A stretch of 64,000 bases of DNA from positions 12,214,001 through 12,278,000 of the forward strand of contig NC_135825.1 in assembly GCF_964213995.1 (NCBI RefSeq), given 5' to 3'. This stretch comes from Mustelus asterias (Eukaryota). The notes below the pieces were generated by a model. That model did not search any database. It saw only the letters and a list, made by a program, of their open reading frames with translations, and was not told the origin of the DNA. Position numbers and translations under genes: made by a program. Below, one piece after another: positions 2,588 through 57,842 of this stretch. Position 1 is the first letter of the stretch, and every line of letters begins with the position of its first letter.

Positions 2588-2666
2588 CTTTCAGCAAATT
2601 TGGAGTTTGGAATTGAGGAATGTGTTGGCGATACTGTTAAAATTTCACAGGAATTTTCAGGTCCGA
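2588..2666 (-). CDS. Stalk exon, copy A (VGPENSCEILTVSPTHSSIPNSKFAE)
   Basis: Strong acceptor tttccttctttcag, S/T/P-rich open frame, phase 1 in and phase 2 out (AG|GTACGC), matching the TM exon's phase-2 start. Confidence 0.75.
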
Positions 2667-30670: not shown

Positions 30671-31575
30671 CAGGGAATTTCCCATTCTGAGGTTATACAG
30701 GCACATTGTTCCATCCTGGGAAAGTGGAATATATCATTGGAGCGACTGGTATCCAGTGCATGGAAAAATCATGTTGCCAATTCCTTCCAGAATTTGTTCA
30801 TCTTTAAATTGACAAAGATTAAGATAAGAATATGAAACAAGAAATGTAGACATTTAATCAGCAAACAGATCAATTATTCTCCAGATGTCGATATACAACC
30901 TGAAGGTCACAGCCACTGTTTGGATTTTGATTCCTCCACTAAATTTTTGATCCAAATCATGTTGGTTGGTTTTTGTTTTTTTATTAGTGTCACAAGTCGG
31001 CTTACATTAACACTGCAATGAAATTACTGAGAAAATCCCCCAGTCGCCACACTCCGGCGCCAGTTCGGGTCACTGAGCGAGAATTCAGCATGGCCAATGC
31101 ACCCGAACCAACACAACTTTCAGACTTCATTTAATAATGAAAAAACATACTATTATGTAGATTTGTTAAAAGAAATGTTCAAAGCTGGATGAGGATTGAA
31201 TATTTGACCAGGATGCAAAATTGCTTCGATGTAGATGGAATCCCAGAATCTTCATTTTCCCACTTTGGTCCAACTGTGAGAATTGGATTCATTGAGTGAC
31301 TGGAAAAGAAAATCATCAGATTCATTGAGATTGGGAGAACAATGCATCAATTGACATTTCAGTCTTGAACAGAATTCTGGAAATGGCAACAATTTGGGGC
31401 AGTTTCGAGATCACATTGATCGCCCTTTGCATGTGCGCTGGGAAACACTCGTTTGGATCCTTCATGAAGACACGTAACCTTATTTACCCACAGAAAACCA
31501 ATGTTCCCCTGCTGCTGTGATTATGGACAATTGACTGGAGAAATTGATTGCTCTGTCCATGTTTCTAAAAATATT

Positions 31576-31671
31576 TTATACAGTCCAGTTGGTGCTTCCA
31601 GCAACAACATCATTGGGTCTGTGTCTCAGCCTCTTACTGCTGTCTGAATCATTTGAAATCTCTTCCAGTTC
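31576..31671 (-). CDS. Candidate terminal cytoplasmic exon, copy B (ELEEISNDSDSSKRLRHRPNDVVAGSTNWTV*)
   Basis: Acceptor tgtttctggacag, phase 0 matching the TM exon, hydrophilic open frame ending in TAA, in apparently non-repeat sequence. Confidence 0.5.
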   Translation of the reverse strand, partial: ELEEISNDSDSSKRLRHRPNDVVAGSTNWTV

Positions 31672-34600: not shown

Positions 34601-37600
34601 GTGCCAGTGACAGCGTCCATGCAGTGCCAGGGGTCAGTGCCAGGGTCAGTGTCCATTCAGTGCCAGGGGTCAGTGCCAGTGTCAGTGTCCATGCAGTGCC
34701 AGGGGTCACAACTGGGGCAGCGTCCATGCAGTGTCAGGGGTCAGTGCCAGAGGCAGTGTCGGGGGGCAGGGCGGGGGTGTGGAGGGGGGGGGGGGCGGTG
34801 CATGAGGTTGTGCAAGGGGAGGGGGGTTCCATTTTCACTTTTGTGCATCAAGTTGACTTTCAAAAATATCATTTTGATCTTGAAGAAACTGAAATTTCTG
34901 GTGGGATGGGCAGTATCCTGTCCCTTCAACATTTATACACATATTCTTCACCATATTTCTTCACCGCCTCTTTTCCTGCCCCTGCCACACTTGGAAATGA
35001 AAGGTAAAATTCCCCCCTGTGTTTAAACCTGTGGACATTGACATCAATGCAAGTTTCTCTGCACAATATCTGTGATAATTACAAAGTGCTCAGAATGATT
35101 GTTGTAAAGTCCATAATCCTCACCTGAGATTTTCTCGTGAACCATGTGACCGAAATCACACAAATCACCAGGAGGGTAAAGAGCCCCCAGCGAATCACAT
35201 TCCAGATGAAGAAACTGAGCAAACTGGAAGAAATACAGAATGATTTGAAGGGAATGAGGCAGCTTCGTGTTTGAAACATGAATCTCCTCTTTACACTGTG
35301 ACCTATTGTAGCAGCATCGCACAGACAAGGCACGTTAGCTGGAGCAATCAACTAAAGTTTCACTGATCAACTTCATGATCATTAGATACAGATCAAATGG
35401 AGCTGGTTTCATTAACTTTCCTCAGTATATCTGGAATGCTGAGTAAAAGCTTAGAAGTAAGAATGTTATGAATTGACTGGTCATTGGGACAGAAACATTG
35501 TCTGGTGCAACATAACATTGGTGAGATATCTGTTCAGTGAGTAAGAAACTTCCAATAACATCATCCCACACTGTTCCAAAGTAGAATCATATTCCACTCA
35601 ATATTAACTCTGCTCCTCTCTTCACAGATGCTGCCGGACCTGCTGAGTTTTCCCAGCACTTTCTGTTTTCATCATCCCACAATTCCCTGGTGCACCTCCT
35701 GACAGGAAATTCGGAACCAGCCGGAAGCAGACGGCCTCAGTTTGGGAACAATGTATTAAACTGGGCAACTGAGAAGGAGAAGATGACAGTGAATGCAATG
35801 TTCCTGTCAGCGATACTCCAGAACACACCGGGTTAAGGGAATCTGGTATCGCTGGAGTGTGACAAACACAACTCCATGAGATTGGGTTCACGGTGAAGTG
35901 ATTAACATGAATAATGAAAACTGCACCATCTAAGGTGTGGCAAACAGAGAAAGCTCACTTCTTAGTCTGAATTTCCACTGACAGAAACAGCAACTTTGTT
36001 AGGAAGCTAACACAATAGCATTATGTAAACACAGCTACCGGGTGGGATGGTGAGCCCGGGTTGGGGGACCACAGGAATGCTGATGGGGATTCAATATCTG
36101 GCAAAACCTGGAAGGCGCAGGCGACTTCATCAGATTCACGGCCATAGTGGGCAAGAACCTGATTTACATACATTTTAATATATTTCCATATCATTAAAGA
36201 CCCCCCCACTCCCCAGATATTGAGCCCTCGCTGTGTTTTCAAACCGGGGCAACGTGACATCACATTGGTGCATTTTACATCAGGTTCACCTGGACATGAT
36301 GGGGAACCCCCTTCCTGGGCAAGAGGGATATGGTCAGGCAGTGGCCTGGCAATGCCCTCTGGCACTCTCCCTTGGCGCAGGTTGGCACTGCCAAGTTGGC
36401 ACCATGCCACCCCAACATTGCCAACCTGGTAGTGCCAACCTGTACCAGTGGCAGTTCCGGGGTGGACCTCAGTGGGAGTCTGATGGGGGAGGGGTTATTC
36501 ATTTACAAGTGAGGGTGGGCCGGAGCGGACAGGGGAGCTGGAGCAGCCGTTTGTGGGAAGGGGCTGGGTTTGTCGGCAATGGCTGTGTGGGTGGAGGGTT
36601 GGAGGGAAGGGCTCCAATGTTCGGGGGGAAGGGGGGTGGTGCCAGCACTGACTGCTGGAGGGGGGGAAAGGTCTGATATTCGGGGGAGGGGTTTGGTGTC
36701 AGCACTGACTGCTGAGGGGTGATGTGGGGGGAGAATTGCTGGCTCATAATAGGAGGATGCCCCGACTCTGACCGGGGTGTGGTGGGATTTGGGGGGAGCC
36801 CCTGAGAGCTCTGTGGTGGGTGGGGGGGAGGTTACATTTAGTTTTGATTGGGCCGCCATGTTTGTGCACTGTCAGCTTACTGCAGCCAGGATTTGCTGGT
36901 GTATCGAGGCCCCGCCCCCTACATGACGATGTGAAGCACGCCCAGCTGTTTTTTTTGTGACAGAGTGTGGTAAGTTCTGGAGAGAAAGACAACCTGCTTC
37001 GAGCCAGAACCAACAGTTTTCAGTAAGATTTCCCTAATATTGTGTTTTATGTTTACGGGGGCTGTTTACAGATTCAGCTTTATTCTGGAGGCAGTCGGTG
37101 TATCAGTAAAACATTCAGTTCAGATGCTGGGAGAGCAGGATAATGGCTCATTTTAGCCATGGAGGGGGGAAGCTAAGCAAAAAATGACTGTTGTTTCCGG
37201 TGAGAAAACCGACAGGTGTCTCTCCAGAGAAACAGGTTAGATTTCTGTGCAGATCTTTGACTGAGAGAGGAAACCGGAGCACACGGAGGAAACTCACGTA
37301 GGTTCAGAGAATGTGCAGACTCCAGGCAGACAGTCACCCAAGGCCAGAATTGAACTTGGATCCCTCGTGCTGCGAGGCAGCACTGCTAACCACAGTGCCT
37401 CTGTGTCACCTGTTGTCATCCTATTGTTAGATCAAAATCCAGGAATTTCTTACCACTCACTTTTCGTCCATGCCACACCAATCTGACCTGTGTCACACAA
37501 CTGCAGTTCTCCCCTGATCTGATGATCACTGACACTGGAACCATTTCTGGGACCTGTGGACATTCACTCCAAGGATTTTCAAATCCTCCACATACCCCAG

Positions 37601-40600
37601 TATCCTCCCATTTATTATCTCACCATTTGCTTTGTTTGACCTGCTCAAATGCATCACCTCACACTTCTCTGGGTTGAATTCCATTTGCCACTTTTCTGCC
37701 CACCTGACCAGTCCATTGATATCTTCCTGCAACCGATAGCAATCCTCCTCGCTATCTACTGCATTAGTAATTTTCATTACATTCCATCTAAATCATTAAT
37801 ATATGCCAGAAAAAACAGGGGACCGAGCACTGAGCATTGGAAACAGCCTTCCAGTCACAAAAACAGCCATCAACAATCATCCTTTGTTTCCTGCCACAAT
37901 TAATTCTTGGCCATTTGTTTACGGAAGTGGGTTTTGAAATTATACAGCACTTTTCATGGCCTTTGGATGGCCTAAAGAATTTTATAATCTGGGAAGTATT
38001 TTTAAACAACCGCCACTGTTGTGATATGGGAGATGTGGCAACCAATTTGCACACAGCAAAATCTCAGAAACAGCAGTGAACTTTGACCAGATCAATATTG
38101 GCCATTTCTTCAGAGATCTCCTTGTCTGCTTTTTCTGTAGATAAGAAGTGACCTGCTGCGTATTTCCAGCAGCTTTTTCATCATTTTGATGTTTAGTTGG
38201 TATTTTTTCCTCATCACCATTGTAACCTCCGTGTTTACATTGGACAACAATTTCTGCTCTTTCTGTGTGTCCCAACTATGTTAGGGGTAGTGGGTTTTAA
38301 CAGAAAAAGAAAATACTTGGTTTGCACACGTAGATTCAAGCAAGCACAAACCAGGTTTTATTGATGAGCTGCTCTCTGCACTGCATCAAGTACAAAACTG
38401 ACAGTCACACAGCAGCCTGAGCACGCACCCTAATGACATCACATCAAATCAACCCATTTTAAAACTCACACCTTCATGATGAAGCGAACACAACAACATC
38501 CCGCCAAGGTTTCTGATCTGAGAGTTATTGAAAAATGATGCCCAGTCTCCCCGATCGTCAGAGACTGGACATATGACCCAAGATGTGTGTCAGGACCCTG
38601 CAGATGACCCAACATGATGATCTCCATGGGAATTGCCTGGGACATTGGAACTTCCAACGGACAATTCTGCTGTACCCTGGGTCCCTCTGTGAAAATCTTC
38701 AGCTCTGGGTAAGAGTCAGACACTTCAAACAATTCCATGGGGCTTAACTGGATAGTTACCCAGGAAATGTTAGACTGAAAGAATCAAGTTTAATTCCTGG
38801 GTAATCACAGAACTGACCCCCGAATAATCACACTGACCCCCTGGAGTCCCCCCAATCCTCTGATTAACCCCCTGACACACCAACTATCACCCCACACTCC
38901 GCCAATTCCACCTGATCTTGTGACTATGCCACAACCTGAGCCAATCCGATTATTCCCTCTGACTACCCTTTGCACCCACCACTTGATTACCCAATGTCCA
39001 AATCTGATTAGCCCCCAAACCAGGCTACCCCTGCCAACCTGACCCAATTGCCACACTATTCATCTACCACCTCATCAACCTACAACCTCACCCACCTGCA
39101 ACCCTACCCTCCTGTCACTTCATCAACAGACTACCTCACCCAACTGCCACTCTACCCACCTCACACGCTTGTGACCTCACTCATCTGTTTTCTCACCCAC
39201 CTACCATCCTTGCCTCCGACTAGCAACACATCTATACACCTGTCTCCCTATCCATCTTTCACCCGACCCACCTGTGCTCCTACAGAGTTCCGATGGAGTT
39301 CTCCGAGGGACACTGCGCTCCACAGTTCTGGAGAATCTGGAGTCGGAAGATCAGGCAAGAAATGTGGAGCTGAGTCGAGGGTGGAAAGCTTCAAGCGGAG
39401 TGGCAATCCAACAATGATTGCTGCTCTGTGACTGGCCCAGGACAATAAATGACATCCATTCTCACGCCAAAGTTGTTAAAGAGGATTTAATCACTCACAC
39501 AGAAGCCATGTCATTTAAACACTAACAATAAAAACAGCGTACCTTTCAGCAAATTTGGAGTTTGGAATTGAGGAATGTGTTGGCGATACTGTTAAAATTT
39601 CACAAGAATTTTCAGGTCCGACTGAAAGAAGGAAACAACATTCAGATCAGCCTCATTTTCATTGTCGTTAACTGAGAGAGTCACATTGTCAAGTGGCACC
39701 TCAACCTGAGGGAGAACCACGTTGAGGGAGCGCCTCTTCTTGGGATGTGGGTGTCGCTGTTTAGGCCAGCAATTATTGCCCATCCCTAATTGCCCTTGAG
39801 AAGGTGGTCATGAGATGCCTCTTGAACCGATGCAGTCCATGTGGTGTAGGTACATCCACTGTGCAGTGAGGGAGGGAGCACCCATCGCATCTGCGCCAGT
39901 CAAAAACAAACCACCTGACTATTCCAAACCCAGTTTCCAGCACTTGGCCCATAGCTCTGTGTGCCTTGGCATCACGAGTGCACATCTAAATAATTCTTAA
40001 ATGTTATGAGGGTCTGTAAGACACCAGGAAAACTTGCCTATTCCTCCTGGAAGAGGGCCATGAAATCATTTACATTTAGCTCAAAGGATGCATGGATCAG
40101 CAGTTCAACCAGACAATAGCACCGTCAACAGCAGAGCGCAATCTCCGTGCTGTACAGTGATATCAACCCCTTTCTCGGAAGGAGAATTTGAACTCACAAT
40201 CCATTGGTTTCAGAAATCAGGCTGCTACCAACTGAGCCCCTTCTGACACTGACATATTTGAATATTAAACATTCAAACTGGTTATAGTCCTCATTAATTC
40301 AGGACTATCGTTAGTGTTTATGTTAACACTGAGTAATTCAGTGTTTAGAACATGGAATTCTGAGATTTTGAGCAGCATTTTGTGATGATAGAATTTTTCG
40401 GCAAAGAAGGAAATTTGGTCCATTGCCCTCCATCGCTATGAAAGAATTTGCCATTTAGAATCAGAGAATCCATGCAGCGCACAAGGAGGCCATTTGGCCC
40501 ATCGAGTCTACAACGACACTCCCATTGTTGTGTCTTTTCCCCAAATCCTCCTAAATGTCTGCTCCTTTTTTGCTTCCCTTGTGAAAGCTGTTATTGATTC

Positions 40601-43600
40601 TGTTTCTAACGCAATCCATATCTTAACAATCATTTGCATCAATAAAATTCTCCCAATTTCTCCCGCTGTCCTTGTTGTGATGATCTTAACTGGATTCTCT
40701 CGAGTATTCACTCACTTACTACTGGAAATAATTAGTCTCAATTTATCTTATCAAAGCTTCAAATAATTTTGAATAGATTTAGCAGACTATTTCCTTCTAT
40801 TCTAATGATTCTTTGCCGGTGTTAGCTGTTGGGAGCACTCTTGTATCTGCAGCCACAAGGATCTGTGTTCTCGCCCTACTCTAGGAATCAAAAATCAAAG
40901 CTGAAACTCCTGTGCAGTACTGAGGAAGTGCTGCACTGTTGGAGGTGCTGCCTTTCGGATGGGATGTTGAACTGAGTCCCCAATCTGCCTGCTCTATGGG
41001 CGGCATGGTGGCACAGTGGTTGGCACTGTTGCCTCACAGCGCCAGAGACCCGGGTTCAAATCTGGCCTTGCGTGACTGTCTGTGTGGAATTTGCACATTC
41101 TCCCCGTGTCTGCGTGGGTTTCCTCCGGGCACTCTGGTTTCCTCCCTCAGTCCAAAGATGTGCGGGTAGGTGGATTCGCCAAGCTAAATTGCCCCTTAGT
41201 GTCAGGGGGAACTAGCTGGGGTAAATGCATGGGATTATGGGGATAAGGCCTGGGTGGGATTGACGTTGGCGGAGACTCGATGCGTCAAATGGTCTCCTTC
41301 TGCACTGTAAGATTCTATGGATTCTATGAAACTATGGATGTATAAGATCGATGGCACTTGATCTCCTGAAGAAAAACAGAAGCGTTATCCGAAATCACCC
41401 GGCGATATTTATCCCTCAATCAAAAACAGGTTATCAGTTCATTATTTTGAGTTTGCTGTGTGTAAATTGGCTGCTGTGTTTCCTGCCTCACAACAGTGAC
41501 AGTGCTTCAAAAAGCATTTCATTGGTTGTAAAGCGCTTCGAGAAGTCAGATGACTGTGAAAATAAATGGAAGACATTCTTTCATTTTGTAAGTGAGACCT
41601 CTTAAGATGCTATCATTTCACATCAACTCTTCAACTCTCTATCCTTACGATTCATCCTAAAGCAAGAGACATCAGCTAAAGATTGTTATTCACAATTTGA
41701 TCTCCAAGAAATGGGAACAGGAATGGTTAATGGAGACCTTGTCAGTCAAGTTCTATTTAATATTAATGGGATTACTGCAACATTTAGACATGTTTGGGGA
41801 ATATTTTATGATCCTGATATTTTCAATCAATATTTTAATCAGTAACTTTGTTCCGAGTTGTTGAGGGACAAAGCAGAGTGAATTTTGTCAGTTGCAGTCA
41901 TTCAGAGAGACATTAGGAACCGAACCAGCAACCAGCTTATTTAGAACTTAGAACATAGAACATAGAACAGTACAGCACAGAACAGGCCCTTCGGCCCACA
42001 ATGTTGTGCCGAGCTTTATCTGAAACCAAGATCAAGCTATCCCACTCCCTATCATCCTGGTGTGCTCCATGTGCCTATCCAATAACCGCTTAAATGTTCC
42101 TAAAGTGTCTGACTCCACTATCACTGCAGGCAGTCCATTCCACACACCAACCACTCTCTGCGTAAAGAACCTACCTCTGGTATCCTTCCTGTGTCTCCCA
42201 CTACGAACCCTATAGTTATGCCCCCTTGTAATAGCTCCATCCACCCGAGGAAATAGTCTTTGAACGTTCACTCGATCTATCCCCTTCATCATTTTATAAA
42301 CTTCTATTAAGTCTCCCCTCAGCCTCCTCTGCTCCAGAGAGAACAGCCCTAGCTCCCTCAACCTTTCCTCATAAGACCTACCCTCCAAACCAGGCAGCAT
42401 CCTGGTAAATCTCCTCTGCACCCTTTCCAGCGCTTCCACATCCTTCTTATGTGAGGTGACCAGAACTGCACACAATATTCCAAATGTGGTCTCACCAAGG
42501 TCCTGTACAGTTGCAGCATAACCCCACGGCTCTTAAACTCCAACCCCCTGTTAATAAAAGCTAACACACTATAGGCCTTCTTCACAGCTCTATCCACTTG
42601 AGTGGCAACCTTTAGAGATCTGTGGATATGAACCCCAAGATCTCTCTGTTCCTCCACAGTCTTCAGAACCCTACCTTTGGCCCTGTAATCCACATTTAAA
42701 TTAGTCCTACCAAAATGAATCACCTCACATTTATCAGGGTTAAACTCCATTTGCCATTTTTCAGCCCAGCTTTGCATCCTATCTATGTCTCTTTGCAGCC
42801 TACAACAGCCCTCCACCTCATCCACTACTCCACCAATCTTGGTGTCATCAGCAAATTTACTGATCCACCCTTCAGCCCCCTCCTCTAAGTCATTAATAAA
42901 AATCACAAAGAGCAGAGGACCAAGCACTGATCCCTGCGGCACTCCGCTAGCAACCTGCCTCCAATCCGAAAATTTTCCATCCACCACCACCCTCTGTCTT
43001 CGATCAGACAGCCAGTTACCTATCCAATCGGCCAACTTTCCCTCTATCCCACACCTCCTCACTTTCATCATAAGCCGACCATGGGGGACCTTATCAAACG
43101 CCTTACTGAAATCCATGTATATGACATCAACTGCCCTACCTTCATCAACACACTTAGTTACCTCCTCAAAAAATTCTATCAAATTTGTGAGGCACGACTT
43201 GCCCTTGACGAATCCGTGCTGACTATCCCGGATTAATCCGCATCTTTCTAAATGGTCGTAAATCCCATCTCTTAGGACCTTTTCCATCAATTTACCAACC
43301 ACCGAAGTAAGACTAACCGGTCTATAATTACCAGGGTCATTTCTATTCCCTTTCTTAAACAGAGGAACAACATTCGCCATTCTCCAGTCCTCTGGCACCA
43401 TCCCCGTGGACAGAGAGGACCCAAAGATCAAAGCCAAAGGCTCTGCAATTTCATCCCTTGCCTCTCAAAGAATCCTAGGATACATTTCATCAGGCCCAGG
43501 GGACTTTTCGACCTTCAGTTTATTCAAAACTGCCAGGACATCCTCCCTCCGAACATCTATTTCCTCCTATTTCAACTATCACTTACCAACGCTGTTGATC

Positions 43601-46600: not shown

Positions 46601-49600
46601 TCCATTTCTCTCCATCCTCCAAGCAGCCTGAACTACAATGTCTGCTATTATATCAGAACATCGCAGCTCTCCAGATCAAACCATGAACCAGGACCGAAAG
46701 ATTTAAATTTAATGGTGAGTGGATTAGATGAGATTTGGGGCAATGGGTTATTTCACTCGGGGGATGTTGAGGGTCTGGAACTCACTGCCTGGAAGAGTGG
46801 TCGAGGGTGGGAGAGGCGGATAACCTGATCACATTAAACAAAATGGATTAAACTTGAGATGCTGTAACCTACAGAGCTCTGGATCAAGAACTAGATGGTG
46901 GGATTAGATTGGATTGCTTGTTCAGTCAACCCAGTGTGGCACAGTGGCACAGTGATTAGCACTGCAGCCACATAGCACCAGGGACCCGGGTTCAATTCTA
47001 GCATTGGCTGTGTGGTCAGTGTGGAGTTTGCACGTTTTCCCCGTGTCTGCGTGGTTTTCCTCTGGGTGCTTCAGTTTCCTCCCACAACCAAAGATATGCA
47101 GATACCCATGGGGAGGTGATGGCCCAGTGGTGTTATCGCTAGCCTATAAATCCATAATCTCATCTAATGTTCTGGGGACCAGGGTTCGAATCCCGCCATG
47201 GCAGCAGTTGGAATTTGATTTCAATAAAGAAAATCTGGAATTAAGAATCTACTGATCACCATGAAACCATTGTCAGTTATTGGAAAACCCATCTGGTTCA
47301 CTCATGTCCGTTAAAGAAGGAAATCTACCATCCTTTCCTGGTCTGGCCTACATGTGATGCCAGAGCCAAAGCAATGTGGTTAATTCTTGACTGTCCTCTG
47401 AAATGGCCTCGCAAACCTCTCAGGATGGCAATAAATGCCACCCAGCCAGCGATGCCCATGTCCACAAATGAATAAAACAAATACTGGCACCTCCCACCAG
47501 GCACCAGGCAGTGCCAATGTGGGTGGTGCTGGCGGGGGAGTTGGCATTCTGGGGGGTGGGGCCTATTGGGGGCTCAATGTGTTGGGGGGTTTTCAGTGAC
47601 ACTGTGCACTGGGATCAGTGTGAGAAGGAGAGAGGAGGGGGACCAGGGCTGGCTATCTGGGTGGGGGGAGATCGGGGCTGGCCCGGGAGAGCTCTGGTAG
47701 GCCAGTGATTGGATGGTTGTGGGGGGTCGGGATGGCCAGCGATCGGGAGGCTAGCGGTGAGGGGGCCACTGTGCATGCGCCACTCTCCGCAGTGACAGAT
47801 CGGTGTGTGTGCAGTGGCTCACTCAGCACTATACTGCCAGCCTCTCTAGTGGGATTTGGACCCGCTCACCACATTTCAGAGTGAATCAATCTGTGTCGGA
47901 GAATCGTTCTGGTCCGTCCCTTATGTTGTCAAATGAGCCTCTTCAGACACTGGAGTTGCAACACATCAAGGAAGCTGATCAGGAAACGTGTACTCCCTGT
48001 GTTGTGGGATAGCCCGTCAGTGAGTTGCTTGTCTCTGTTCATTCCTTTGTCTTGTGGAGCTCAGGGTCTGTGTGGAGTAGGTAGTTGCTGCTATTGGTGC
48101 TATTGGTCACCTGGGTCCTCATCTGAGGCCCAAAATAAAACAGCCTGAGAACCACCCATGCTGATCTGATAGATACAATCACCAAAATGTAACCCAGAAA
48201 TACACATTACCATCTCTGTTGTGAAAGTCTGTAAATACTGATATAAAAACCTTTCACACAATCAGGCGAGAAATAAGCAGTGAGGTTCCAATGCTCCTTG
48301 GCATCTTTCCCAGTCACTTCTTCAGCCTCCCCCATTGCCTCTGTCTTCTGCCCTTGCTCAGTAACCCGAGCAGCCATAGTTAGATTTCACTAATTGCACT
48401 CACTGAGCGATTAATAGACTGAAATTGATAACCCGTCTCTCACTGGGGGGATTTGATCACACACGGATTGACACATTTAATGTTTCTGATGCGCGACAAT
48501 TAAGCACGTGGAACCAAGGCTTCGATATTGAAGGCTTTTATTGTGTAACAATGGAACTACTAACACGAATACACCAGTTCAGACTGAAGGGGTCCTGCCG
48601 GAGCAGGGGGTCTTATACCTCGCCACCGGAGGCGGGACCCCACTGGAATGTGCCATGATAACTCTTATAACAGGTAAACACCCTAACCCAACAGCATTGT
48701 ACAACCCCCACAGTAACAACACCCTAGCCCAACAGTAACATAATAACAACCCCCAGTGGTGAACCAACGATGGTTCACCACATTCACCCCTCCTTTAAGA
48801 ACAAAAGGTGGCGGGGTGCAAGAAAAAACAGGTCATATAAACAGAATTCACAAGTCCAGACGGTCTGGAGGACCGCACCGACGCTGTGATCTCCTCAACA
48901 CCGGTTGCGAAACCGGAGCAGGTGCTTGCGGTGGCGTTCTTTCCAAAACAACGTCTGGCTGTCCCCTCAAGGACTCCCGGGCCGGTTGGCCCTGGTGAGG
49001 CGATGGTGCAGGGGATCCTGGAACCTTTGGTGGTGGTGGTGGTGGTGATGATGGTCGCGCCGATCTCCCGAGTCTCAGGCAAGCTGTACATGGGAGTAAA
49101 AGTGTTATGCACTGGTCCCGGTGCTGACCGCGCCACGTCTGGGGAAGCAATGAGGAGTAGTGGATTCGTGACTGGGGGAATAGGAGCGACAGGAGTTGCT
49201 ACGTCCCCTGCGGGCGCCAGGTCTCTAATGGAGACAGTGTCCTCTCGCCCGTCAGGATATGCCACATAGGCATACTGAGGGTTGGCGTGGAGGAGTTGGA
49301 CCGGTTCGACCAAGGGGTCGGACCTGCGAGCCCTCACATGTCGCCGCAGAAGGACGGGTCCTGGGTACGTCAACCAGGCTGGCAATGAGGTTCCCGAGGA
49401 CGACTTCCGAGGGAATGAGAACACCCTCTCGTGGGGAGTAGCATTGGTTGCCGTACACAGGAGGGAGCGGATAGAATGGAGTGCCTTTGGAAGGACCTCC
49501 TGCCAACGGGAGACTGGAAGGCCCCTGGATTTCAGTGCCAGTAGGACAGCCTTCCAGACTGTAGCATTCTCCCTTTCCACCTGTCCGTTACCCCTAGGGT

Positions 49601-52600
49601 TGTAGCTCGTGGTTCTACTAGAGGCAATCCCGAATGAGAGCAGGAATTGCCTCAAGTCGTTGCTCATGAACGACGAGCCCCTGTCGCTATGAATGTAGCA
49701 GGGGTACCCGAACAGGGTAAAAAGCTCACTGAATGCCTTGATGACGGTGGCAGTCGACGTGTCCGCACAGGGGACAACAAACGGAAACCGGGAATACTCG
49801 TCTATTATGTTGAGGAAATAGACATTCCGGTCCGTTGAGGGAAGGGGGCCCTTAAAATCCACACTCAGCCTCTCAAAAGGGCGAGTGGCCTTGACCAATT
49901 GTGCCCGGTCTGGTCGATAAAAGTGTGGTTTGCATTCTGCGCAACTCCGACAGCTTCTCGTCACTGACCTGACATCCTCCACCGAGTAGGGCAGGTTGCG
50001 GGCTTTGACGAAGTGGTAGAGTCTGGTGACTCCAGGATGACACAGATCATTGTGGAGAGCCTTCAAGCGGTCCTCCTGCATGATGGCGCATGTTCCGCGC
50101 GAGAGGGCATCCGAGGGCTCATTGAGCTTCCCTGGACGATACATAATATCGTAATTATAGGTGGAGAGCTCAATTCTCCACCGCAAGATCTTATCGTTCT
50201 TGATCTTGCCCCTCTGCGTGTTGCTGAACATAAACGCCACGGATCGTTGATCCGTGATCAGGGTGAACCGCTTCCCTGCCAGGTAATGGCGCCAGTGTCT
50301 GACTGCCTCCACAATGGCCTGAGCCTCCTTCTCCACCGCTGAGTGCCGAATTTCGGGGCCTTGAAGGGTGCGGGAAAAGAACGCGACGGGCCTGCCTGCC
50401 TGGTTTAGTGTGGCGGCTAGGGCGAAATCAGATGCATCACTCTCCACCTGGAAAGGGATGGATTCATCCACCGCGTGCATCGTGGCTTTCGAGATGTCGC
50501 TTTTCAAAGCCTTGAAGGCCAATTGGGCCTCCGGCGTAAGTGGGAAGGTCGTGGACTTAATGAGCGGACGAGCTTTGTCCGCGTAGTTGGGGACCCACTG
50601 TGCATAATACGAAAAGAACCCGAGGCATCTCCTCAGTGCTTTCGTGCTAGCGGGCAAGGGAAGTTCAGTAAGTGGGCGCATACAGTCTGGATCAGGGCCA
50701 ATGACCCCGTTTTCCACCACGTATCCGAGGATGGCTAACCTACGCGTACGGAATACGCACTTCTCCCTGTTATAGGTCAGATTCAGGCGAGATGCAGTGC
50801 GCAGAAAGTGTTGGAGATTCATGTCGTGGTCCTGCTGGTCATGGCCGCAGATGGTGACGTTATCCAGGTACGGGAAGGTAGCCCGCAACCCGTTCTGGTC
50901 CACCATTCGGTCCATAGCACGCTGGAAGACCGAGACCCCATTGGTGACACCAAATGGAACCCTGAGGAATTGGTATAGACGACCATCCGCCTCAAAAGCC
51001 GTATATTGTCGGTCCTCTGGGCGGATGGGGAGTTGATGGTAGGCGGACTTAAGGTCTATGGTAGAAAACACTCGGTACTGCGCAATCTGATTGACCATAT
51101 CAGAAATGCGCGGGAGAGGATACGCATCCAGCTGCGTATAACGATTAATGGTCTGACTATAGTCGATGACCATCCGAGGTTTGTTCCCGCTTTTGACTAC
51201 CACGACCTGCGCTCTCCACGGACTAGCACTGGCCTGTATGATCCCTTCCTTGAGGAGCCGCTGAACCTCAGATCTAATAAAGATCCGGTCCTCAGCGCTG
51301 TAACGCCTACTTTTAGTAGCGATGGGCTTGCAGCCAGGTACCAGATTTTTAAAAAGGGATGGTGTAGTGATTTTCAGGGTGGATAGATTGCATGCGGGGC
51401 GCTTTGGGCAATTTGGAGGCTGCGGCTGATTCCCTACTGCCAGTGAAGGGAGTGGCCCACCGTACTGTAGGATCACACTCTTCATGTGGACCATAAAGTT
51501 TAGTCCGAGGAGAATTGGCGCGCAAAGGTGAGGTAACACAAGGAGCCTGTATTGCTCGTAAATTGTGCCCTGTACCTCAAGAGTTACCATACATCGTCCT
51601 TGGATCGGTACAGACCGGGACCGTGATGCCATGGAAATTGTCTGCTTGGCAGGGAGAACCCGGAGTCCACACCTTTTAGCAGTTTCAGGGTGTATGAAAC
51701 TTTCGGTGCTCCCACTGTCAAACAGACAATTCACAGTTCGACCACTAACCTTTATATCCATCATGGAATTTTCAAGTCTGTAGTGCCTGGTCTGGTCCAG
51801 GGAGATCGACGCCACCGTTGGCCCCTGGGCATCACTGCATGCTGCCGATGTGGATGCTGAGGACCCCTGCTGGTCGCTCCCAGTCGTCGTGGACCATGAT
51901 GGCCGCCCCCATGAATCGCACATGGGCGAGGGCGCCAAGCGCAGCGACTCCTGGTGGTCTTCCTCCTCCTCCGTCAGCCACGATGGCGCCGTCCTGGGAT
52001 CGCACGTGGTCGGACCTCGTGGGTACTGCGACGCTGAAGGAGATTGTCTCCGTTCTGGAGGGTTACAAGCTGCACTGCCGTTTTTAGGCTTGGACCTGCA
52101 GACTTTGCCGTAGTGGCCTTTTTTACCGCACTGGCTGCAGATTGCCGTTCCTGCCGGACACTGTTGCCGTGGATGCTTGGCCCCACCACAAAAATAGCAT
52201 CGCTGGCCACCTGGAGCTGCCGCCGTCGTCGGATCGATCTGGGAGCGCGGGTTAGCGGGGCGAGGAGGGAGCTGAGCTTGCTCCAGCCACGTTGACTGCA
52301 CGTGGTCCTCGGGGTACAGCGCCAAGCTCTTCGACGCCGCTTCCAGCATCACGGCCATCTCCATTGCTTGGGTCAAGTCGAGTTTCCACTTTTCCAGCAA
52401 TTTAAGCCTGATGTACGAGGACCCTACCCCTGCTACGAACGCGTCTCGGGCGAGGTCGTACATATATTGTTCGGCTGATACGTCTTTACAATCGCAACCC
52501 CTGGCAAGCTGCAGGAGCTCATTGGCGTAGTCCTCCATGGTTTCGCCCGACTGCCGACGTCGTGTAGCGAGGAGGTAACGAGCATGTATCTCGTTGGGTG

Positions 52601-55600
52601 GCTTCGTGTACCTTTTGTTTAGGAGCTCGACGGCACCCGGGTAAGTGGGAGCTGCACGAATGGCGAGATAAATCGTGTCACTTACCCTTGCGTGGAGGAC
52701 CTGGAGTTTATCACTGTCTGTAGTGATAGCTACTGAGGCTGCCAGGTAGTCCTCGAAACACTTCCACCAATGGTCGAATGTGTTAGCTGCACCGACCGCA
52801 CGTGGGTCCAGTGTCAGACGATCCGCTTTTAAGATCTGTTCCATACTCTCTTTTTTTTTGTACAGCTGTGAGTTTTCTGTTACACAATAAAATTGATGCG
52901 CGACAATTAAGCACGTGGAACCAAGGCTTCGATATTGAAGGCTTTTATTGTGTAACAATGGAACTACTAACACGAATACACCAGTTCAGACTGAAGGGGT
53001 CCTGCCGGAGCAGGGGGTCTTATACCTCGCCACCGGAGGCGGGACCCCACTGGAATGTGCCATGATAACTCTTATAACAGGTAAACACCCTAACCCAACA
53101 ACATTGTACAACCCCCACAGTAACAACACCCTAGCCCAACAGTAACATAATAACAACCCCCAGTGGTGAACCAATGATGGTTCACCACAGTTTCCATGGA
53201 GATTTTTATGATCATTTGGAACATTTGGAATATTGTGTCCAATTCTGGTCACCACACAACCAGAAGGATGTGGAGGCTTTGGAGAGAGTGCAGAAAAGGT
53301 TGACCAGGATGTTGCCTGGTATGGAGGGTATTACCTATGAGGAGAGTTTGAATGAGCTGGGATTGTTCTCCCTGGAAAGACAGAGGCTGAGGGGCAACCT
53401 GAGAGAAGTTTATAAAATTATGAGAGGTGTGGATAGAGTGAACAGTTGGAAGCTTTTTCCCAGGGCAGAAATGACAATTAGAAGGACGCACAAGTTCAAG
53501 ATAACGGGGGAAAGATTCAGTGGAGATGTGCGGGAGAACTTTTTTACACAGAGGGTGGTGGGCGCCTGGAATGCACTGCCAAGTGAGGTGGTTGAGGCAC
53601 TTATATTAGCTATATTTAAGGTTTTATCTTGGTAGACGTATGAACAAACAGGGAATAGAGGAATATAAGCATTGGTAAACGTGATCAGCACAGGAAGGGC
53701 CTGTTCCTGTTCTGTCCTGTTCTTTGTTCTTTGTTCTTTGATCCCTTTAAGGGGCTTTCACCATATTGGATTATTTAATTGTTTAATTTGCCAATTTGTT
53801 AACTTTTAATCTGTCAGCTTCACCCTGAATTTTCAGTGGTTTATTTGAAAGAAGCACAAACTGACACATTGCGGATACATCTGGATGTTGGGAGTTTGAC
53901 TGGCTTCCCAACATATTGTCAATTTCTGTGTATTTAACCCCCTCTGTGCTCCCCCACCCACCCCCACAGCCCCACCATTCAGCGCTAAACCAACAAGGTA
54001 CAATTACTACCAACTGGCTGCTCACTTCACTTTGTTAATGTCTGACTATTGGATTGATCTGGACTGTAAAAATCTGACAGTGTGATATTTAAGACATTTC
54101 AGAGACAGGAAAATATTCTGAGCATCGCGGGTAATGTCTTTCACAATATCCTGCAGTTAAAGGAATTGTTTGTCTGATTATGTTTGAAGTTCTTGATCAG
54201 AATGTTGGACAGGCCACGAATTGAGTTTGTGTCACAAGAGTCGGATTTCCAGATCTCTGCCCTCTAGCTGCCAGACTCTGCATTGCTGCAGAGCCTCGGG
54301 ATATCGGAGCTGTCAATGTTTCCTTGTGGATAAAACATGGATCAGACATTTCAGTAATAAAGAAAATCATTCAGAATAATGTACCGTAAGATATTTGCAG
54401 CTCCACGGTTACCTTTGGATCTAAGTCAGGTATATCAATTCCACAGCGATACCATCCTGCATCTCCTGAGCGAAGATCCTCCATCGTAACAGCAAATATT
54501 CCTTGTGCCTTGTTATCTGTGATCGACATTCTCCCTCGCCGTCCATCTGGATCATCCGTTCTCACTAAATATGAGCACTGTTCAGTCCAACCGTGACACC
54601 AATATTTCACGTTTTGTTTGTATTTCCCTTTATAATTGCAATTTATTGTGATCGATCTTCCCACAATTCCTGTGACTTTCTTTTCTGCCCACAATGCACC
54701 TGAAACTGAGGAGACAACATTTCAGCAATTGACCAAGTAAATAACTGCTTCATACAGAGAGAAACATTTTAATAAGATTTACCACTGTGTACAGAGGAAA
54801 CTCTCCAATACCTGTATTCATCATTCTCTTTCTAGTTTGTGATGAATGAAAACATGAATATAGAGCCGTGCTGTCAGTGCCAAAGTACTTCACTGACAAT
54901 GATTTCTTGTTATGTACAGTGGCCATTGTTATTGTGTCACCTTGTCACTCAAGCTTTGCACTGGCGCCTCTGAATGGGTGGATTGCAGGGTCAGGTCCCA
55001 CTCCAGAGACTGGAGTATAAAATCTACACTAACATTCCAGTGTAATACTGAGGGACAAGATGGCTCAGATTTTCCTCCCTCAGTCATGTTCAAAGAGCTC
55101 GGTGATGCCATTCAGGTGAAAGGTTCATCTGACACCCAGGTCTGGAGGTTCCCTGTCATGGAGAAAATCCCGGGAATGGCTGGAATTTCAAAGTCCTAAG
55201 AGTGGGAGCGGGACTGGAATCAGGCTGCATACACGATTCGTGGAGGCGAATTGTCATTAAATTCAACACCTGCCTTGATTTAAGTGAGATTTTGGATGAA
55301 CAGGAGTGTGGAATCCGGTGTGTGCAGATTAGAATAGTTAAGAGAAGGTTTGAACTTGGTGGATTCTTATGGACAGCCAGGGTATGCCTTCTGGACAGGA
55401 AAGTTACTCTTTGGAAGAGGAAAGTTACTCTTTGGGAGGGGAAAATTACTCTTTGAGGGGGGAAAGTTCCTCTTTGTGGGGAGAAATTTATTCTTTGGGA
55501 CAAACTCTGGTGAGTGGTCAGGGCCAGAGTGATTATCTGGTTGTTTCAATTATTCTATTTATTAACCATGGCGCTGGGGCACAGAAACAGGCCTTGTGTC

Positions 55601-57842
55601 CAGCTCACCTCCGGGCTGAGCAGCCTGTGGATTTGTTCCTGGGTCACCCGTCTCGATTCATTTTTTAATGCCTTTCCTGACTCAATGAACACGACCCAGG
55701 GATGAGATGAGGAGATTGTTTTCACTCAAGGTGTTGGGAATCTTTGGAATTCTCCACCGCAGAAAGCTTTAGATGTACAGTCTTGAAGGATATTAAACAC
55801 AGAGATTTATACATTTTTGTGGTACTAACATAATCGAGGGATATGGGAATAGTGCGGGAAATAAGATTTGAGGTTGGAGATCAGTCAGGATGTTGTTGAA
55901 TGATGGAGCAGGCTCAAAGGGACAAATGGCCATCTCCTGCTCTTATTTCTAATGTTCATCTTGAGGGGGAGAGGTGGCAGTATGAATCAAAAATTCCATT
56001 GCAGCCAGCATAATAGCATCAGTTTAATATGGGGCTGGTGTGAAAATTTAGATTTACTTTAAAAAGAAAATGATTACATCTTTGAAGGTCAAAGTAGACC
56101 AACCATGTACAAGTGATTGGATGGTACCATGGTGAGCCCGGCTGCCTCACAGGGCCAGTGACTTGGGTTCAATTCTGGCCTCAGGTGACTGTGTGGAGCT
56201 TGCATATTCTCCCATGTCTGCGTGGGATATCGCAGGGTGCTCCAGTTTCTACCTACAGTCCAAATATGTGCAGGTTAAGTTGATTGGCCATGCTAAATTG
56301 TCCCTTAATGTCCAAAGATGTATAGGTTAGGAAGTTAGTGAGGGAAATATGTGGTGTTACGGGGATAGGGCCTGGGTAACATGCTTAGCCGGAGAGTTGT
56401 TGCAGATGTGATGGGCCGAATGGCCTCCTTTTGTACTGTTGAGATTCTTTGAAGCAGATTTACCAACAGAGCTTCATAAAACAATATTTCATTCGTAATA
56501 ATTTAAATAATACAAACAAAAGAAGGAAAATGGTCTGTTGGCCTTCATAGCGGGAGGATTTGAGTACAGGGATAGGGATGTTTTGCTGCAATTGTACAGG
56601 GCATTGGTATGGCCTCACCTGGAGTATTGTGTGCAGTTTTGGTGTCCTTATCTGAGGAAGGATGTCCTTGCTATAGAGTAAGTACAGTGAAAGTTGACCA
56701 GGCTGATTCCTGGGATGACAGGTCTGCTTTATGAAGAGGGACTAAGTCAGTTAGGATTATATTCACTGGTGTTTAGAAGAGTGAGGCGGGATCTCATAGA
56801 AATTTATAAAATTTGAACAGGGTTACAGAGGGTAGATTCAGAAAGAATGCCCTCAATGGTGAGGGAGTCCAGAACTAGGGGGTCATAGTTTGAGGATAAG
56901 GGGCAAACCATAAAGAACTGAGATGAGGAGAAACTTTTTCACCCAGAGGGTGGTGAATGTGTGGAATTCACTCCCACAGAATGTAGTTGAGGCCAAAACG
57001 TTGTCTGATTTCAAGAAAAAATTAGATAGAGCTCTTGGGGATAAAGGGATCAAGGAATATGGGAAGAAGGGGATCAGGGTATTGAATTGGATGATCAGCC
57101 ATGATCAAAATGAATGGCGGAGCAGGCTCGAAGGGCCGAATGGCCTACTCCTGCTTCTAGTTTCTATTTTTCTATGTTTCTAATTGCAAACTTGAGGAAT
57201 ATTTTCCTGGAGCCTTTGTTGCCTCTGCAGTCTTCAGAGTCAATTCAATGAGCAATAATCTGCAATGGATCACAGGCATCTCTCAACTTGAGGGAGGGAC
57301 AATTGGTTACATTTAGTGTGGGGGGCAGGAATGGGGAAAGGTGAGGAGGCAGATTTCCATAAACTACCACAGCCGCTCTGAGGATTGAACCCCTGCCATT
57401 GGAATCATTCCGCATTGCACTCCAAACAACTGAGCCAATCAAACCCTCCAGTCTCCAGGATATATTGAGCATGAAACTACATTAACAAGTTAACTTTTAT
57501 TGGACTGAAATGTGTGGCTTCTGCATTTTAATTATATTAATCATGTAGCTTTTTAACAAAAATAAATAGGTTAATTTATATTCACAATCAATAATGCCGT
57601 TTATTATTTGCTGGGTAAATATTTCTGTGGTACAATACTATCAACAAAATAGCTACAAATATCACACAAATTCATTAATTTATTTTTGCTGAGTTTTTGT
57701 AGCTTTACATGTCTCCAAGTATTTCAATATCTCTGCGGGATAAACCATGCACGAGACTTAATCTAACACTCATCATCTCGGGATCCAGCTTTGTCCCTTA
57801 CTCACCAGGCAGAGAAAAGATGACAAGAATCAGAATCCACAT
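31576..57842 (-). CDS. Complete multi-exon IgSF receptor gene, copy B (leader-V-C2-V-C2-stalk-TM-tail, ~529 aa); CD300/pIgR-like V plus FCRL-like C2, MDIR-like
   Basis: Eight exons with GT-AG boundaries and compatible phases (1,1,1,1,1,2,0): 57806-57842, 54385-54705, 46150-46473, 45172-45480, 43587-43910, 39543-39621, 35124-35223, 31576-31671. They sum to 1590 nt with an open frame. Confidence 0.8.
33313..34255 (+). mobile_element. Truncated Penelope-like retroelement with inverted terminal pLTR and GIY-YIG fragment
   Basis: 33313-33569 is the reverse complement of ~33957-34213. The inner sequence encodes SCNSANVVYLIRC...WYIGET. Flanked by ATGTACCAGGAGG direct repeats. Confidence 0.85.
34325..34760. 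repeat. 36-bp minisatellite built from ~12-bp CAGTGYC subunits
   Basis: CAGTGCCAGGGGT-CAGTGCCAGGGT-CAGTGTCCATG, about 12 copies. Confidence 0.92.
35124..35223 (-). CDS. Transmembrane exon, copy B (SLLSFFIWNVIRWGLFTLLVICVISVTWFTRKSQ)
   Basis: Acceptor tatttcttccag (phase 2), hydrophobic helix with internal NxxR, basic RK stop-transfer, donor CAG|GTGAGG. Confidence 0.85.
37454..37546 (-). pseudogene. Relic C2 exon fragment (copy B)
   Basis: Identical to 499-591. Confidence 0.8.
39543..39621 (-). CDS. Stalk exon, copy B
   Basis: As copy A, with one synonymous TCC/TCT change. Confidence 0.75.
41937..43567 (-). mobile_element. 5'-truncated CR1 LINE (copy B)
   Basis: Counterpart of 4982-6612. 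Confidence 0.93.
43587..43910 (-). CDS. Ig C2 exon C2, copy B
   Basis: Same protein as copy A. Confidence 0.92.
45172..45480 (-). CDS. Ig V-set exon V2, copy B
   Basis: As copy A, with one E/G change (GRRGR). Confidence 0.9.
46150..46473 (-). CDS. Ig C2 exon C1, copy B
   Basis: Same protein as copy A. Confidence 0.92.
48487..53189 (-). mobile_element. Full-length Gypsy LTR retrotransposon (copy B, same insertion site)
   Basis: LTRs at 48487-48782 and 52894-53189, TSD GTTTC. Confidence 0.97.
48795..52844 (-). CDS. gag-pol: Gypsy Gag-Pol polyprotein, copy B
   Basis: Open ORF with ~16 amino-acid differences from copy A. Confidence 0.93.
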   Translation of the reverse strand: MEQILKADRLTLDPRAVGAANTFDHWWKCFEDYLAASVAITTDSDKLQVLHARVSDTIYLAIRAAPTYPGAVELLNKRYTKPPNEIHARYLLATRRRQSGETMEDYANELLQLARGCDCKDVSAEQYMYDLARDAFVAGVGSSYIRLKLLEKWKLDLTQAMEMAVMLEAASKSLALYPEDHVQSTWLEQAQLPPRPANPRSQIDPTTAAAPGGQRCYFCGGAKHPRQQCPAGTAICSQCGKKGHYGKVCRSKPKNGSAACNPPERRQSPSASQYPRGPTTCDPRTAPSWLTEEEEDHQESLRLAPSPMCDSWGRPSWSTTTGSDQQGSSASTSAACSDAQGPTVASISLDQTRHYRLENSMMDIKVSGRTVNCLFDSGSTESFIHPETAKRCGLRVLPAKQTISMASRSRSVPIQGRCMVTLEVQGTIYEQYRLLVLPHLCAPILLGLNFMVHMKSVILQYGGPLPSLAVGNQPQPPNCPKRPACNLSTLKITTPSLFKNLVPGCKPIATKSRRYSAEDRIFIRSEVQRLLKEGIIQASASPWRAQVVVVKSGNKPRMVIDYSQTINRYTQLDAYPLPRISDMVNQIAQYRVFSTIDLKSAYHQLPIRPEDRQYTAFEADGRLYQFLRVPFGVTNGVSVFQRAMDRMVDQNGLRATFPYLDNVTICGHDQQDHDMNLQHFLRTASRLNLTYNREKCVFRTRRLAILGYVVENGVIGPDPDCMRPLTELPLPASTKALRRCLGFFSYYAQWVPNYADKARPLIKSTTFPLTPEAQLAFKALKSDISKATMHAVDESIPFQVESDASDFALAATLNQAGRPVAFFSRTLQGPEIRHSAVEKEAQAIVEAVRHWRHYLAGKRFTLITDQRSVAFMFSNTQRGKIKNDKILRWRIELSTYNYDIMYRPGKLNEPSDALSRGTCAIMQEDRLKALHNDLCHPGVTRLYHFVKARNLPYSVEDVRSVTRSCRSCAECKPHFYRPDRAQLVKATRPFERLSVDFKGPLPSTDRNVYFLNIIDEYSRFPFVVPCADTSTATVIKAFSELFTLFGYPCYIHSDRGSSFMSNDLRQFLLSFGIASSRTTSYNPRGNGQVERENATVWKAVLLALKSRGLPVSRWQEVLPKALHSIRSLLCTATNATPHERVFSFPRKSSSGTSLPAWLTYPGPVLLRRHVRARRSDPLVEPVQLLHANPQYAYVAYPDGREDTVSIRDLAPAGDVATPVAPIPPVTNPLLLIASPDVARSAPGPVHNTFTPMYSLPETREIGATIITTTTTTKGSRIPCTIASPGPTGPGVLEGTARRCFGKNATASTCSGFATGVEEITASVRSSRPSGLVNSVYMTCFFLHPATFCS
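54385..54705 (-). CDS. Ig V-set exon V1, copy B
   Basis: As copy A, with one H/D change (PDLDPK). Confidence 0.93.
57806..57842 (-). CDS. Leader exon, copy B
   Basis: Identical to 22643-22679. Confidence 0.85.

What the first reader, a model, noticed from the sequence alone, without database searches (positions are those of the whole stretch)
31576..57842. Reconstructable V-C2-V-C2 hybrid immune receptor (CD300/pIgR-type V + FCRL-type C2) in a tandem gene array
Seen: eight phase-compatible exons give a ~529-aa type I membrane protein with two tandem V-C2 modules. Established: the V features (YWC...C extra CC' cysteines, DxGWYxC) belong to the CD300/pIgR/TREM group, and GSLPIQYTW/YYCTASN C2 domains to FCRL/PECAM-type receptors. 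Such mixed domains are known from the skate modular domain immune-type receptors (MDIR). Inference: this is a lineage-expanded elasmobranch receptor family growing by both module duplication and whole-gene duplication. Automatic pipelines would likely label it only 'pIgR-like'.
Basis: partly seen in the sequence, partly recalled or inferred. Interest (0 to 1): 0.8.

Follow-up and report, generated by a model that had tools for sequence, protein, structure and literature searches.

The report
Shark receptor fused from two genes
This shark gene belongs to an immune-receptor family already known from skates, but its DNA joins a piece of an 'off-switch' type gene to the membrane anchor of a likely broken 'on-switch' type gene and stands in four near-identical copies beside an off-switch gene with an almost identical outer part, so it likely makes an activating twin of that inhibitory receptor.

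Summary
The homologous tail exon is 31299-31252, giving 513 aa. The protein is an MDIR: 54% identical over its length to skate MDIR5, same V-C2-V-C2-stalk-Arg-TM layout, so the architecture is known, and this scan met the family before on other DNA. Its stalk exon and flanking introns come from inhibitory-type genes; a sharp junction at 37550/37547 joins them to the last C2, TM and tail of stalk-less activating-type genes, and the borrowed stalk puts that TM back in frame. (2) Four copies (20-57 substitutions apart in 17 kb) sit beside an ITIM-bearing gene whose four Ig domains differ at 2 of 422 residues. (3) The second V is a galeomorph-shark subtype lacking the CC' disulfide and the CD300 metal-binding Asp, repeated up to ten times per gene (30 copies in the cluster); likely a spacer. 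The cluster holds 19 V+C2 genes. RefSeq fuses the copies into 'uncharacterized' proteins. Expression, splicing, ligand and copy number are untested. A new variant of a known kind.

The parts
57806..57842 (-). Exon 1, signal peptide (coding part)
   Evidence: ATG, GT donor, phase 1; same leader in all copies
54385..54705 (-). Exon 2, distal V domain, CD300/pIgR type, CC' Cys pair and FG-loop Asp kept
48487..53189 (-). LTR retrotransposon in intron 2 (296-bp LTRs 99.3% alike, 5-bp target duplication, one 1396-codon frame with protease, RT, RNase H, integrase)
   Evidence: shared by the four copies and gene B, absent from gene A
46150..46473 (-). Exon 3, C2 domain, FCRL5-like, five Cys
45172..45480 (-). 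Exon 4, short V ('v'): 4-residue CC' deletion, lone C' Cys, FG Asp replaced by Leu
   Evidence: one clade with other galeomorph sharks, 98/95
43587..43910 (-). Exon 5, C2 domain
39543..39621 (-). Exon 6, stalk of inhibitory-gene type, phase 1 to 2
   Evidence: found in 8 genes: the 4 chimeras and 4 genes where it precedes an uncharged TM
37547..37550 (-). Chimeric junction: inhibitory-gene intron joined to the inside of an activating-type gene's last C2 exon
37476..37547 (-). 3' remnant of a C2 exon, no own acceptor, now intronic
35124..35223 (-). Exon 7, TM with Arg near its outer end (NVIR), phase 2 to 0
31252..31299 (-). Exon 8 (corrected), 15-residue tail without tyrosine motif, to the stop; poly(A) signal candidates at 31135 and 30985
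31576..31671 (-).
592..22679 (-). Next copy of the chimera (leader 22679-22643, V 19542-19222, C2 9518-9195, v 8525-8217, C2 6955-6632, stalk 2666-2588, junction near 592); TM and tail lie beyond the window's start; two residue changes, one of them Asp to His at the FG-loop position
16880..18673 (-).

Best explanation
The gene is a chimeric MDIR that likely encodes an activating leukocyte receptor paired with a neighbouring inhibitory receptor of near-identical ectodomain. Shown in the DNA: (1) three activating-type genes of the cluster have an Arg-TM but no recognisable stalk exon, so their last C2 (phase 1) meets the TM exon (phase 2) out of frame and reads into a stop after nine codons; (2) one non-homologous join placed an inhibitory-type C2-stalk-intron segment inside the last C2 exon of such a gene, and the stalk (phase 1 to 2) makes the TM and tail in frame again; (3) the roughly 36-kb unit was amplified to four copies in this assembly; (4) the adjacent gene B has the same four Ig domains (2 of 422 residues differ) and the same upstream DNA but an uncharged TM and three tyrosine motifs. 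Inferred: the exons are spliced as modelled; the TM Arg recruits the FcR-gamma adaptor; the distal V binds ligand in a CD300-type CC'/FG pocket (probably a Ca2+-bridged lipid head group or a pathogen mimic of one); the C2-v-C2 part is a spacer. The pair would work like Siglec-14/Siglec-5: the same ligand, opposite signals, with gene dosage shifted 4:1 toward activation.
For: Frame and splice sites. Full-length match to skate MDIR5, 54% over 507 columns, same layout and short tail. Stalk exon found in 5 of 8 non-chimeric activating-type genes, none in 3; their phases 1 to 2; out-of-frame reading stops early. Junction 100% identical in exactly 4 places; its left half matches the 4 inhibitory genes at 89-94%, its right half the 3 stalk-less genes at 86-90%; 400-bp scan shows the same switch. 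Gene B: 98.5-100% alike from the promoter to about 40,000, lower beyond, no match past the junction, intact ITIM-like tail. NxxR-type TMs associate with FcR-gamma in Xenopus and mammals (PMC2413239, PMC4536121, passages); an FcR-gamma-like TM exon is in this genome (telling it from CD3-zeta rests on recall). Distal V keeps the CC' Cys pair and an Asp that aligns with position 98 of mouse CD300lf (equal-length ranges 2-42 and 66-106), the metal ligand of its lipid pocket (PMC6166816, passages); short v keeps neither, Asp in 0 of 29. dN/dS 1.61 (95% 0.92-3.40, 6 genes) for distal V against 0.52 (25 v) and 0.58 (43 C2).
Against: No transcript evidence of any kind was obtained. Only 0-2 residue changes separate the copies, too few to show selection on the chimera itself. 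The Asn of NxxR is not conserved in other sharks and skates, only the Arg (tails). My scan for cryptic stalk exons missed the known stalks in both control genes, so 'stalk-less' rests on homology search and intron alignment only. The dN/dS interval includes 1 and recombination among paralogues can inflate it. The direction of events is unsettled: the leader-V-C2 half of the chimera is closer to the stalk-less activating genes (mostly 96-99%) than to the other inhibitory genes, so gene B may have received its ectodomain from the chimera, not the reverse. Copy 3 has a gene-A-like 3' end, which fits unequal crossing-over but also a join of two haplotypes. One copy has lost the FG Asp.
Confidence: 0.6

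Rival explanations
1. The chimera is a passenger of a recent segmental duplication: silent, mis-spliced or secreted, with no activating function.
For: Its TM donors look decayed (changed C2 donor site and an extra Cys in all three stalk-less genes); the cluster holds broken exons and orphan leaders; copies are too young to show purifying selection.
Against: All eight exons are open with canonical sites in all four copies; the junction is several percent older than the amplification, and TM and tail stayed intact over that time; upstream DNA equals that of intact gene B.
Confidence: 0.2
2. Copy number is inflated by the assembly (two haplotypes laid end to end); the true array is shorter.
For: Copies are 99.5-99.9% alike; copy 3 switches to gene-A sequence at its 3' end.
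Against: All five ectodomain copies differ pairwise by 20-81 substitutions in 16,978 columns, in mosaic patterns, so two haplotypes would still need at least three on one; no gap lies in the array. The chimera and its twin remain either way.
Confidence: 0.2
3. The units are read as long multi-module receptors, as RefSeq models them (gene A plus copies 1-2; copies 3-4 plus gene B).
For: All Ig exons are phase 1, so the join is in frame; RefSeq proteins P0001 and P0002 do this; genuine neighbours have up to 22 Ig exons.
Against: Each unit has its own leader, TM, tail exon and poly(A) signals, which the models skip; several RefSeq models in other sharks show the same fusion with internal TMs.
Confidence: 0.07
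4. It works as an immunoglobulin receptor (Fc receptor or pIgR stand-in) and not as a lipid or pathogen sensor.
For: C2 closest to FCRL5; V and fold closest to pIgR by summed score; sharks are said to lack pIgR, FCRL and classical Fc receptors (PMC4016189, PMC13337447, passages).
Against: The pIgR domain-1 stretch before YWC (recalled as its Ig-binding loop) is two residues shorter and unlike in this V; the best single-domain match is mouse CD300lf (72 bits against 40 for the best mouse pIgR domain); fast change in the distal V fits a moving ligand better than a host Fc.
Confidence: 0.1

Closest known systems
MDIR5 (also MDIR2, MDIR3) of clearnose skate; P0085, P0115, P0078
   Same: Leader-V-C2-V-C2-stalk-Arg-TM-short tail; 54% identity over 507 columns; same Cys-bearing C2 tail and stalk.
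   Different: Second V is the short subtype; stalk is of inhibitory-gene type; chimeric origin; four recent copies. Skate V domains form their own clade, so no 1:1 orthology.
Siglec-14/Siglec-5 and Siglec-16/Siglec-11 paired receptors
   Same: Neighbouring activating and inhibitory genes with near-identical ectodomains kept alike by recombination (PMC4042635 passages; PMC5701461 abstract start).
   Different: Unrelated domains; Arg/FcR-gamma type TM instead of DAP12; here the whole ectodomain is shared, the activating gene has four copies and arose at a non-homologous junction.
CD300 family (CD300lf)
   Same: V domain with CC' Cys pair and Asp at the position of Asp98.
   Different: CD300s have a single V; no C2; ligand untested here.
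FCRL5 and Xenopus FcR-like (XFL) receptors
   Same: C2 type; variable domain number, NxxR versus uncharged TMs, shuffling by recombination (PMC2413239 passages).
   Different: No V domains in those; the shark C2 has three extra Cys and a predicted extra strand; far from FCRL5 in the tree.
pIgR
   Same: V-domain type.
   Different: pIgR is all-V; domain-1 loop not conserved; TM charged and tail of 15 residues.

Membership tests
MDIR (cartilaginous fish) | CD300/pIgR-type V domain(s) combined with C2 domains in modular order | tested here: met
MDIR (cartilaginous fish) | Full-length homology to named MDIR proteins | tested here: met
   54% to MDIR5, 52% to MDIR3, 57% over 229 columns to MDIR2
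MDIR (cartilaginous fish) | Multigene family with activating (charged TM) and inhibitory (tyrosine-motif) members | tested here: met
   12 Arg-TM and 7 uncharged-TM genes among 19 (my count); feature as quoted in PMC3031540; original paper not held
MDIR (cartilaginous fish) | Expressed, spliced transcript in immune tissue | tested here: inconclusive
   contigs only, no informative joint listed
Paired receptors (Siglec-5/14 kind) | Near-identical ectodomains with opposite signalling modules in adjacent genes | tested here: met
   2 of 422 residues differ from gene B; Arg-TM and no tyrosine motif against uncharged TM and three motifs
Paired receptors (Siglec-5/14 kind) | Shared ligand, co-expression and opposite signals | not testable with these tools
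   needs bench work
FcR-gamma-coupled receptors | NxxR at the outer end of the TM | tested here: met
   NVIR; motif; Asn not conserved beyond this species' genes
FcR-gamma-coupled receptors | Physical association with the adaptor | not tested
CD300 | Single V ectodomain | tested here: not met
   four Ig domains
CD300 | CC' disulfide and FG-loop Asp of the lipid/metal pocket | tested here: met
   distal V only; short v not met
CD300 | Conserved synteny with the mammalian locus | tested here: inconclusive
   no Tweety-family gene on this contig; neighbours found were a CCDC48-family gene and a G-alpha exon
pIgR | All-V ectodomain with the domain-1 Ig-binding loop | tested here: not met
   two C2 domains; loop shorter and unlike; role of the loop recalled
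FCRL | Ectodomain of FCRL-type C2 domains only | tested here: not met
   alternating V and C2; C2s group with MDIR, on a long branch from FCRL5

The most novel reading that the evidence does not exclude
MDIRs are the missing FcR-gamma-coupled immunoglobulin receptors of cartilaginous fish, and this cluster tunes them in two ways at once: a ladder of ligand-blind, disulfide-locked C2-v spacers that sets reach from 2 to 22 Ig domains, and tail swaps that turn a dead activating anchor into a live twin of an inhibitory receptor and multiply it.
Probability: 0.1. Interest if true: 0.8.

Novelty: new variant of a known kind. Interest (0 to 1): 0.42.

Why it matters
It catches the birth of a paired receptor in a shark at base-pair resolution: the junction, both donor gene types, the amplified copies and the inhibitory twin are all still readable. 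That gives a clean test pair (same ectodomain, two tails) for finding the ligand of MDIRs, for which my searches found no ligand report. The short-V spacer and genes with up to 22 Ig exons are hidden in RefSeq under fused or misleading names ('uncharacterized', 'titin-like'). Reviews still say sharks lack pIgR, FCRL and Fc receptors, and one 2014 survey found no FcR-gamma; this cluster and an FcR-gamma-like exon give candidates to test. The kind of process is well known from Siglecs, KIRs and Xenopus FcR-like genes, so the surprise is moderate.

Tried and rejected
RNA evidence: no RNA holder listed for window 43000-47000 (the stretch included a LINE, which may explain the small shares). Contigs of four runs laid on 30000-40900 gave no splice joint and no junction-bridging piece among the rows shown; 1285 joints and most pieces were not shown: uninformative. 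Complex prediction of the TM with the FcR-gamma-like peptide was not available, so adaptor binding stays open. AlphaFold model of gene B's ectodomain (mean pLDDT 84.9, pTM 0.48) gave four beta domains and an extra strand after G in both C2s but no coordinates, so disulfide pairing could not be read; Foldseek returned pIgR first with TM-score 0.22. Alternative last exons at 32855 and 31737 rejected. Cryptic-stalk scan failed its two controls. Synteny: IL10 search blank with a blank control; Pfam on 150 of 195 upstream and 150 of 236 downstream frames found only CCDC48, G-alpha, V-set and transposon domains. The MDIR paper (PMID 16738934, PMC3701310) and PMC2823954 are not held. Bovine CD300 falls inside the shark clade on a long branch, so V trees were not used to place MDIRs relative to CD300 or pIgR.
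Full report
Setting. The window is G000:C25:12,214,001-12,278,000 of a 3.68-Gb genome. Proteins that match its exons at 100% carry the source label Mustelus asterias. I fetched C25:11.66-12.92 Mb around it.

Observation. Seven exons on the minus strand have AG/GT ends, phases 1,1,1,1,1,2,0 and one open frame. The V exons hit Pfam V-set, the C2 exons Ig_3; solved relatives are pIgR and CD300 for V and FCRL5 for C2. That stretch has a weak acceptor and is missing or frame-broken in 6 of 8 non-chimeric activating-type genes. Searching with tails of related RefSeq proteins finds the homologous tail exon at 31299-31252, with a good acceptor; the pattern found it in 12 places, 11 of the 12 Arg-TM genes by my mapping plus a diverged copy in the twelfth seen separately. 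The corrected protein has 513 residues and a 15-residue tail without tyrosine.

Family. A search with a skate relative returned MDIR2, MDIR3 and MDIR5 by name. MDIR5 has the same leader-V-C2-V-C2-stalk-Arg-TM-short-tail layout and aligns at 54% over 507 columns. Relatives occur in Callorhinchus, batoids, squalomorph and galeomorph sharks. So the hybrid architecture is known. C2 domains group largely by species and the Mustelus V domains fall in several clades, as expected from birth-and-death with homogenisation; there is no single-copy orthologue.

Cluster. Between 11.85 and 12.59 Mb I count 19 genes with V and C2 exons: 53 V exons and 55 C2 exons (2 of them partial), with 1 to 11 V-C2 units per gene. 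Twelve end in an Arg-TM, seven in an uncharged TM with a tyrosine-motif tail. V-only relatives follow to about 12.98 Mb. RefSeq fuses gene A with copies 1-2 (P0002) and copies 3-4 with gene B (P0001), skipping leaders, TMs and tails.

The chimera. The window's stalk exon occurs in 8 genes; in 4 it precedes an uncharged TM, in the other 4 (the window gene and its copies) an Arg-TM. Between stalk and TM lies the 3' remnant of a C2 exon (37547-37476). Sequence on the stalk side of 37550 aligns only to inhibitory genes; sequence from 37547 on aligns only to three Arg-TM genes, starting inside their last C2 exon. The join has at most three bases of micro-homology. A genome search with 341 bases across it gave full-length 100% matches in 4 of 40 scored places, half matches of 89-94% in the four inhibitory genes and 86-90% in the three Arg-TM genes: one event, older than the amplification. 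Those three donor-type genes show no stalk exon by homology, whereas the other five activating-type genes do, with phases 1 to 2; read directly after C2, the TM exon stops after nine codons. The borrowed stalk therefore restores the frame. My scan for cryptic stalks missed both controls, so a non-homologous stalk in those genes is not excluded.

The twin. The order along the minus strand is gene A, four chimeras, gene B. Gene B matches the window copy at 98.5-100% from the promoter to about 40,000, at 91-97% from there to the junction, and not beyond. Its four Ig domains differ at 2 of 422 residues, the stalk at 4 of 25; it has an uncharged TM and an open last exon with three tyrosine motifs. 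Two histories fit: tandem duplication of a segment from inside A to inside B with later homogenisation, or capture of a C2-stalk segment by an A-type gene followed by transfer of its ectodomain to B. The scan leans to the second, since leader, V and first C2 are closest to the stalk-less genes. The outcome is the same. The five ectodomain copies differ pairwise by 20-81 substitutions in 16,978 columns; copy 3 has an A-like 3' end. Real unequal crossing-over and a haplotype join both fit this; at least three copies on one haplotype are needed either way.

The short V. Thirty of the 53 V exons share a 4-residue deletion that removes the C-strand Cys and leaves one C' Cys. All follow a C2. The same subtype occurs once per gene in Carcharodon, Cetorhinus, Stegostoma, Rhincodon, Chiloscyllium and Hemiscyllium and forms one clade, 98/95 (88 of the 140 V rows). 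A search with it found multi-copy arrays only in Mustelus among 35 hits (weak evidence). In mouse CD300lf the lipid head group sits between the CC' and CDR3 loops, on the CC' disulfide, with Asp98 holding Ca2+ (PMC6166816, passages). The distal V has Asp at the aligned position, as do 10 of 11 V1-type and 67 of 97 intact V domains of other species; 0 of 29 scored Mustelus short v and 0 of 8 in other sharks do. Pairwise dN/dS is 1.61 (0.92-3.40) for six distal V, 0.52 (0.31-0.90) for 25 short v, 0.58 (0.40-0.84) for 43 C2 and 0.69 for 12 other V; near-identical copies and exons with stops were dropped. I infer a ligand-binding tip on a spacer of variable length.

Cysteines. Over 167 distinct C2 rows, the E-strand and tail Cys occur together in 160. 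The A' Cys is present in 68 of 71 C2s before a Cys-bearing stalk, 13 of 13 before a V with one CC' Cys, and 24 of 61 before a V with none or two; 22 rows of other kinds were left out. One of the 13 is mis-parsed and most belong to one clade, so this is a lead for an inter-exon disulfide, not a result. The model shows an extra strand after G in each C2 but gave no distances.

Signalling. The TM has NVIR at its outer end. NxxR TMs associate with FcR-gamma (PMC2413239 and PMC4536121, passages). Two zeta-family TM exons exist in the genome; by recalled signatures one is CD3-zeta and one FcR-gamma. Only the Arg is conserved across sharks and skates, so the motif match should not be over-read. Binding was not tested.

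Literature. Searches found MDIR only in PMC3031540 (passages); searches found nothing on shark MDIR chimeras or a short V subtype. The library lacks most subscription journals, and the MDIR paper and its supplements were not available, so a prior description of the domain subtype cannot be excluded. PMC4016189 and PMC13337447 (passages) state that cartilaginous fish lack pIgR, FCRL and Fc receptors. PMC4042635 (passages) and PMC5701461 (abstract start) describe the Siglec analogy. No supplements were read. Three earlier scan notes file related shark loci under MDIR.

Verdict. A real, intact-looking MDIR gene of known architecture, with a corrected last exon. Its interest lies in the readable chimeric origin, the inhibitory twin and the spacer-like V subtype. 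New variant of a known kind; interest 0.42; function inferred, expression unseen.

Noticed in passing
G000:C25:12,019,842-12,081,459 (+), loci L016-L023: Inhibitory-type gene with 22 Ig exons (V, C2, then ten v-C2 units); one v exon has two stop codons and could be skipped in frame. Two more with five and six v-C2 units at 12,012,363 (-) and 12,338,901 (+); RefSeq splits the latter into 'titin-like' and a partial protein.
   Followed up: partly
G000:C25:11,964,910 (-), 12,081,174 (+), 12,384,307 (+): The three long inhibitory genes share a stop right after the second tyrosine motif; gene B reads through to a third.
   Followed up: partly
   Followed up: no
L122:357-449 (G000:C275) and L121 (G000:C17:72.917 Mb): FcR-gamma-like and CD3-zeta-like TM exons; a 2014 survey reported no FcR-gamma in sharks.
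   Followed up: partly
window 48487-53189: Young LTR retrotransposon with one intact 1396-codon frame; related elements lie elsewhere in the cluster.
   Followed up: partly
window 16880-18673: LINE insertion present in copies 2-4 but not copy 1 or gene B; marks mosaic exchange among copies.
   Followed up: partly
window 34324-34760: 36-bp tandem repeat, 12 copies, in the TM-tail intron.
   Followed up: no
G000:C25:12,086,658, 11,953,197-11,954,255, 12,393,148-12,396,279: Orphan or doubled leader exons and stray cytoplasmic-exon fragments, traces of deleted genes.
   Followed up: no
L083-L085 and L091 (G000:C25:11.68-11.76 Mb): CCDC48-family gene and a G-protein alpha exon upstream of the cluster.
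   Followed up: no
G000:C25:12,326,896-12,327,095: 200-base assembly gap inside the cluster, outside the four-copy array.
   Followed up: no
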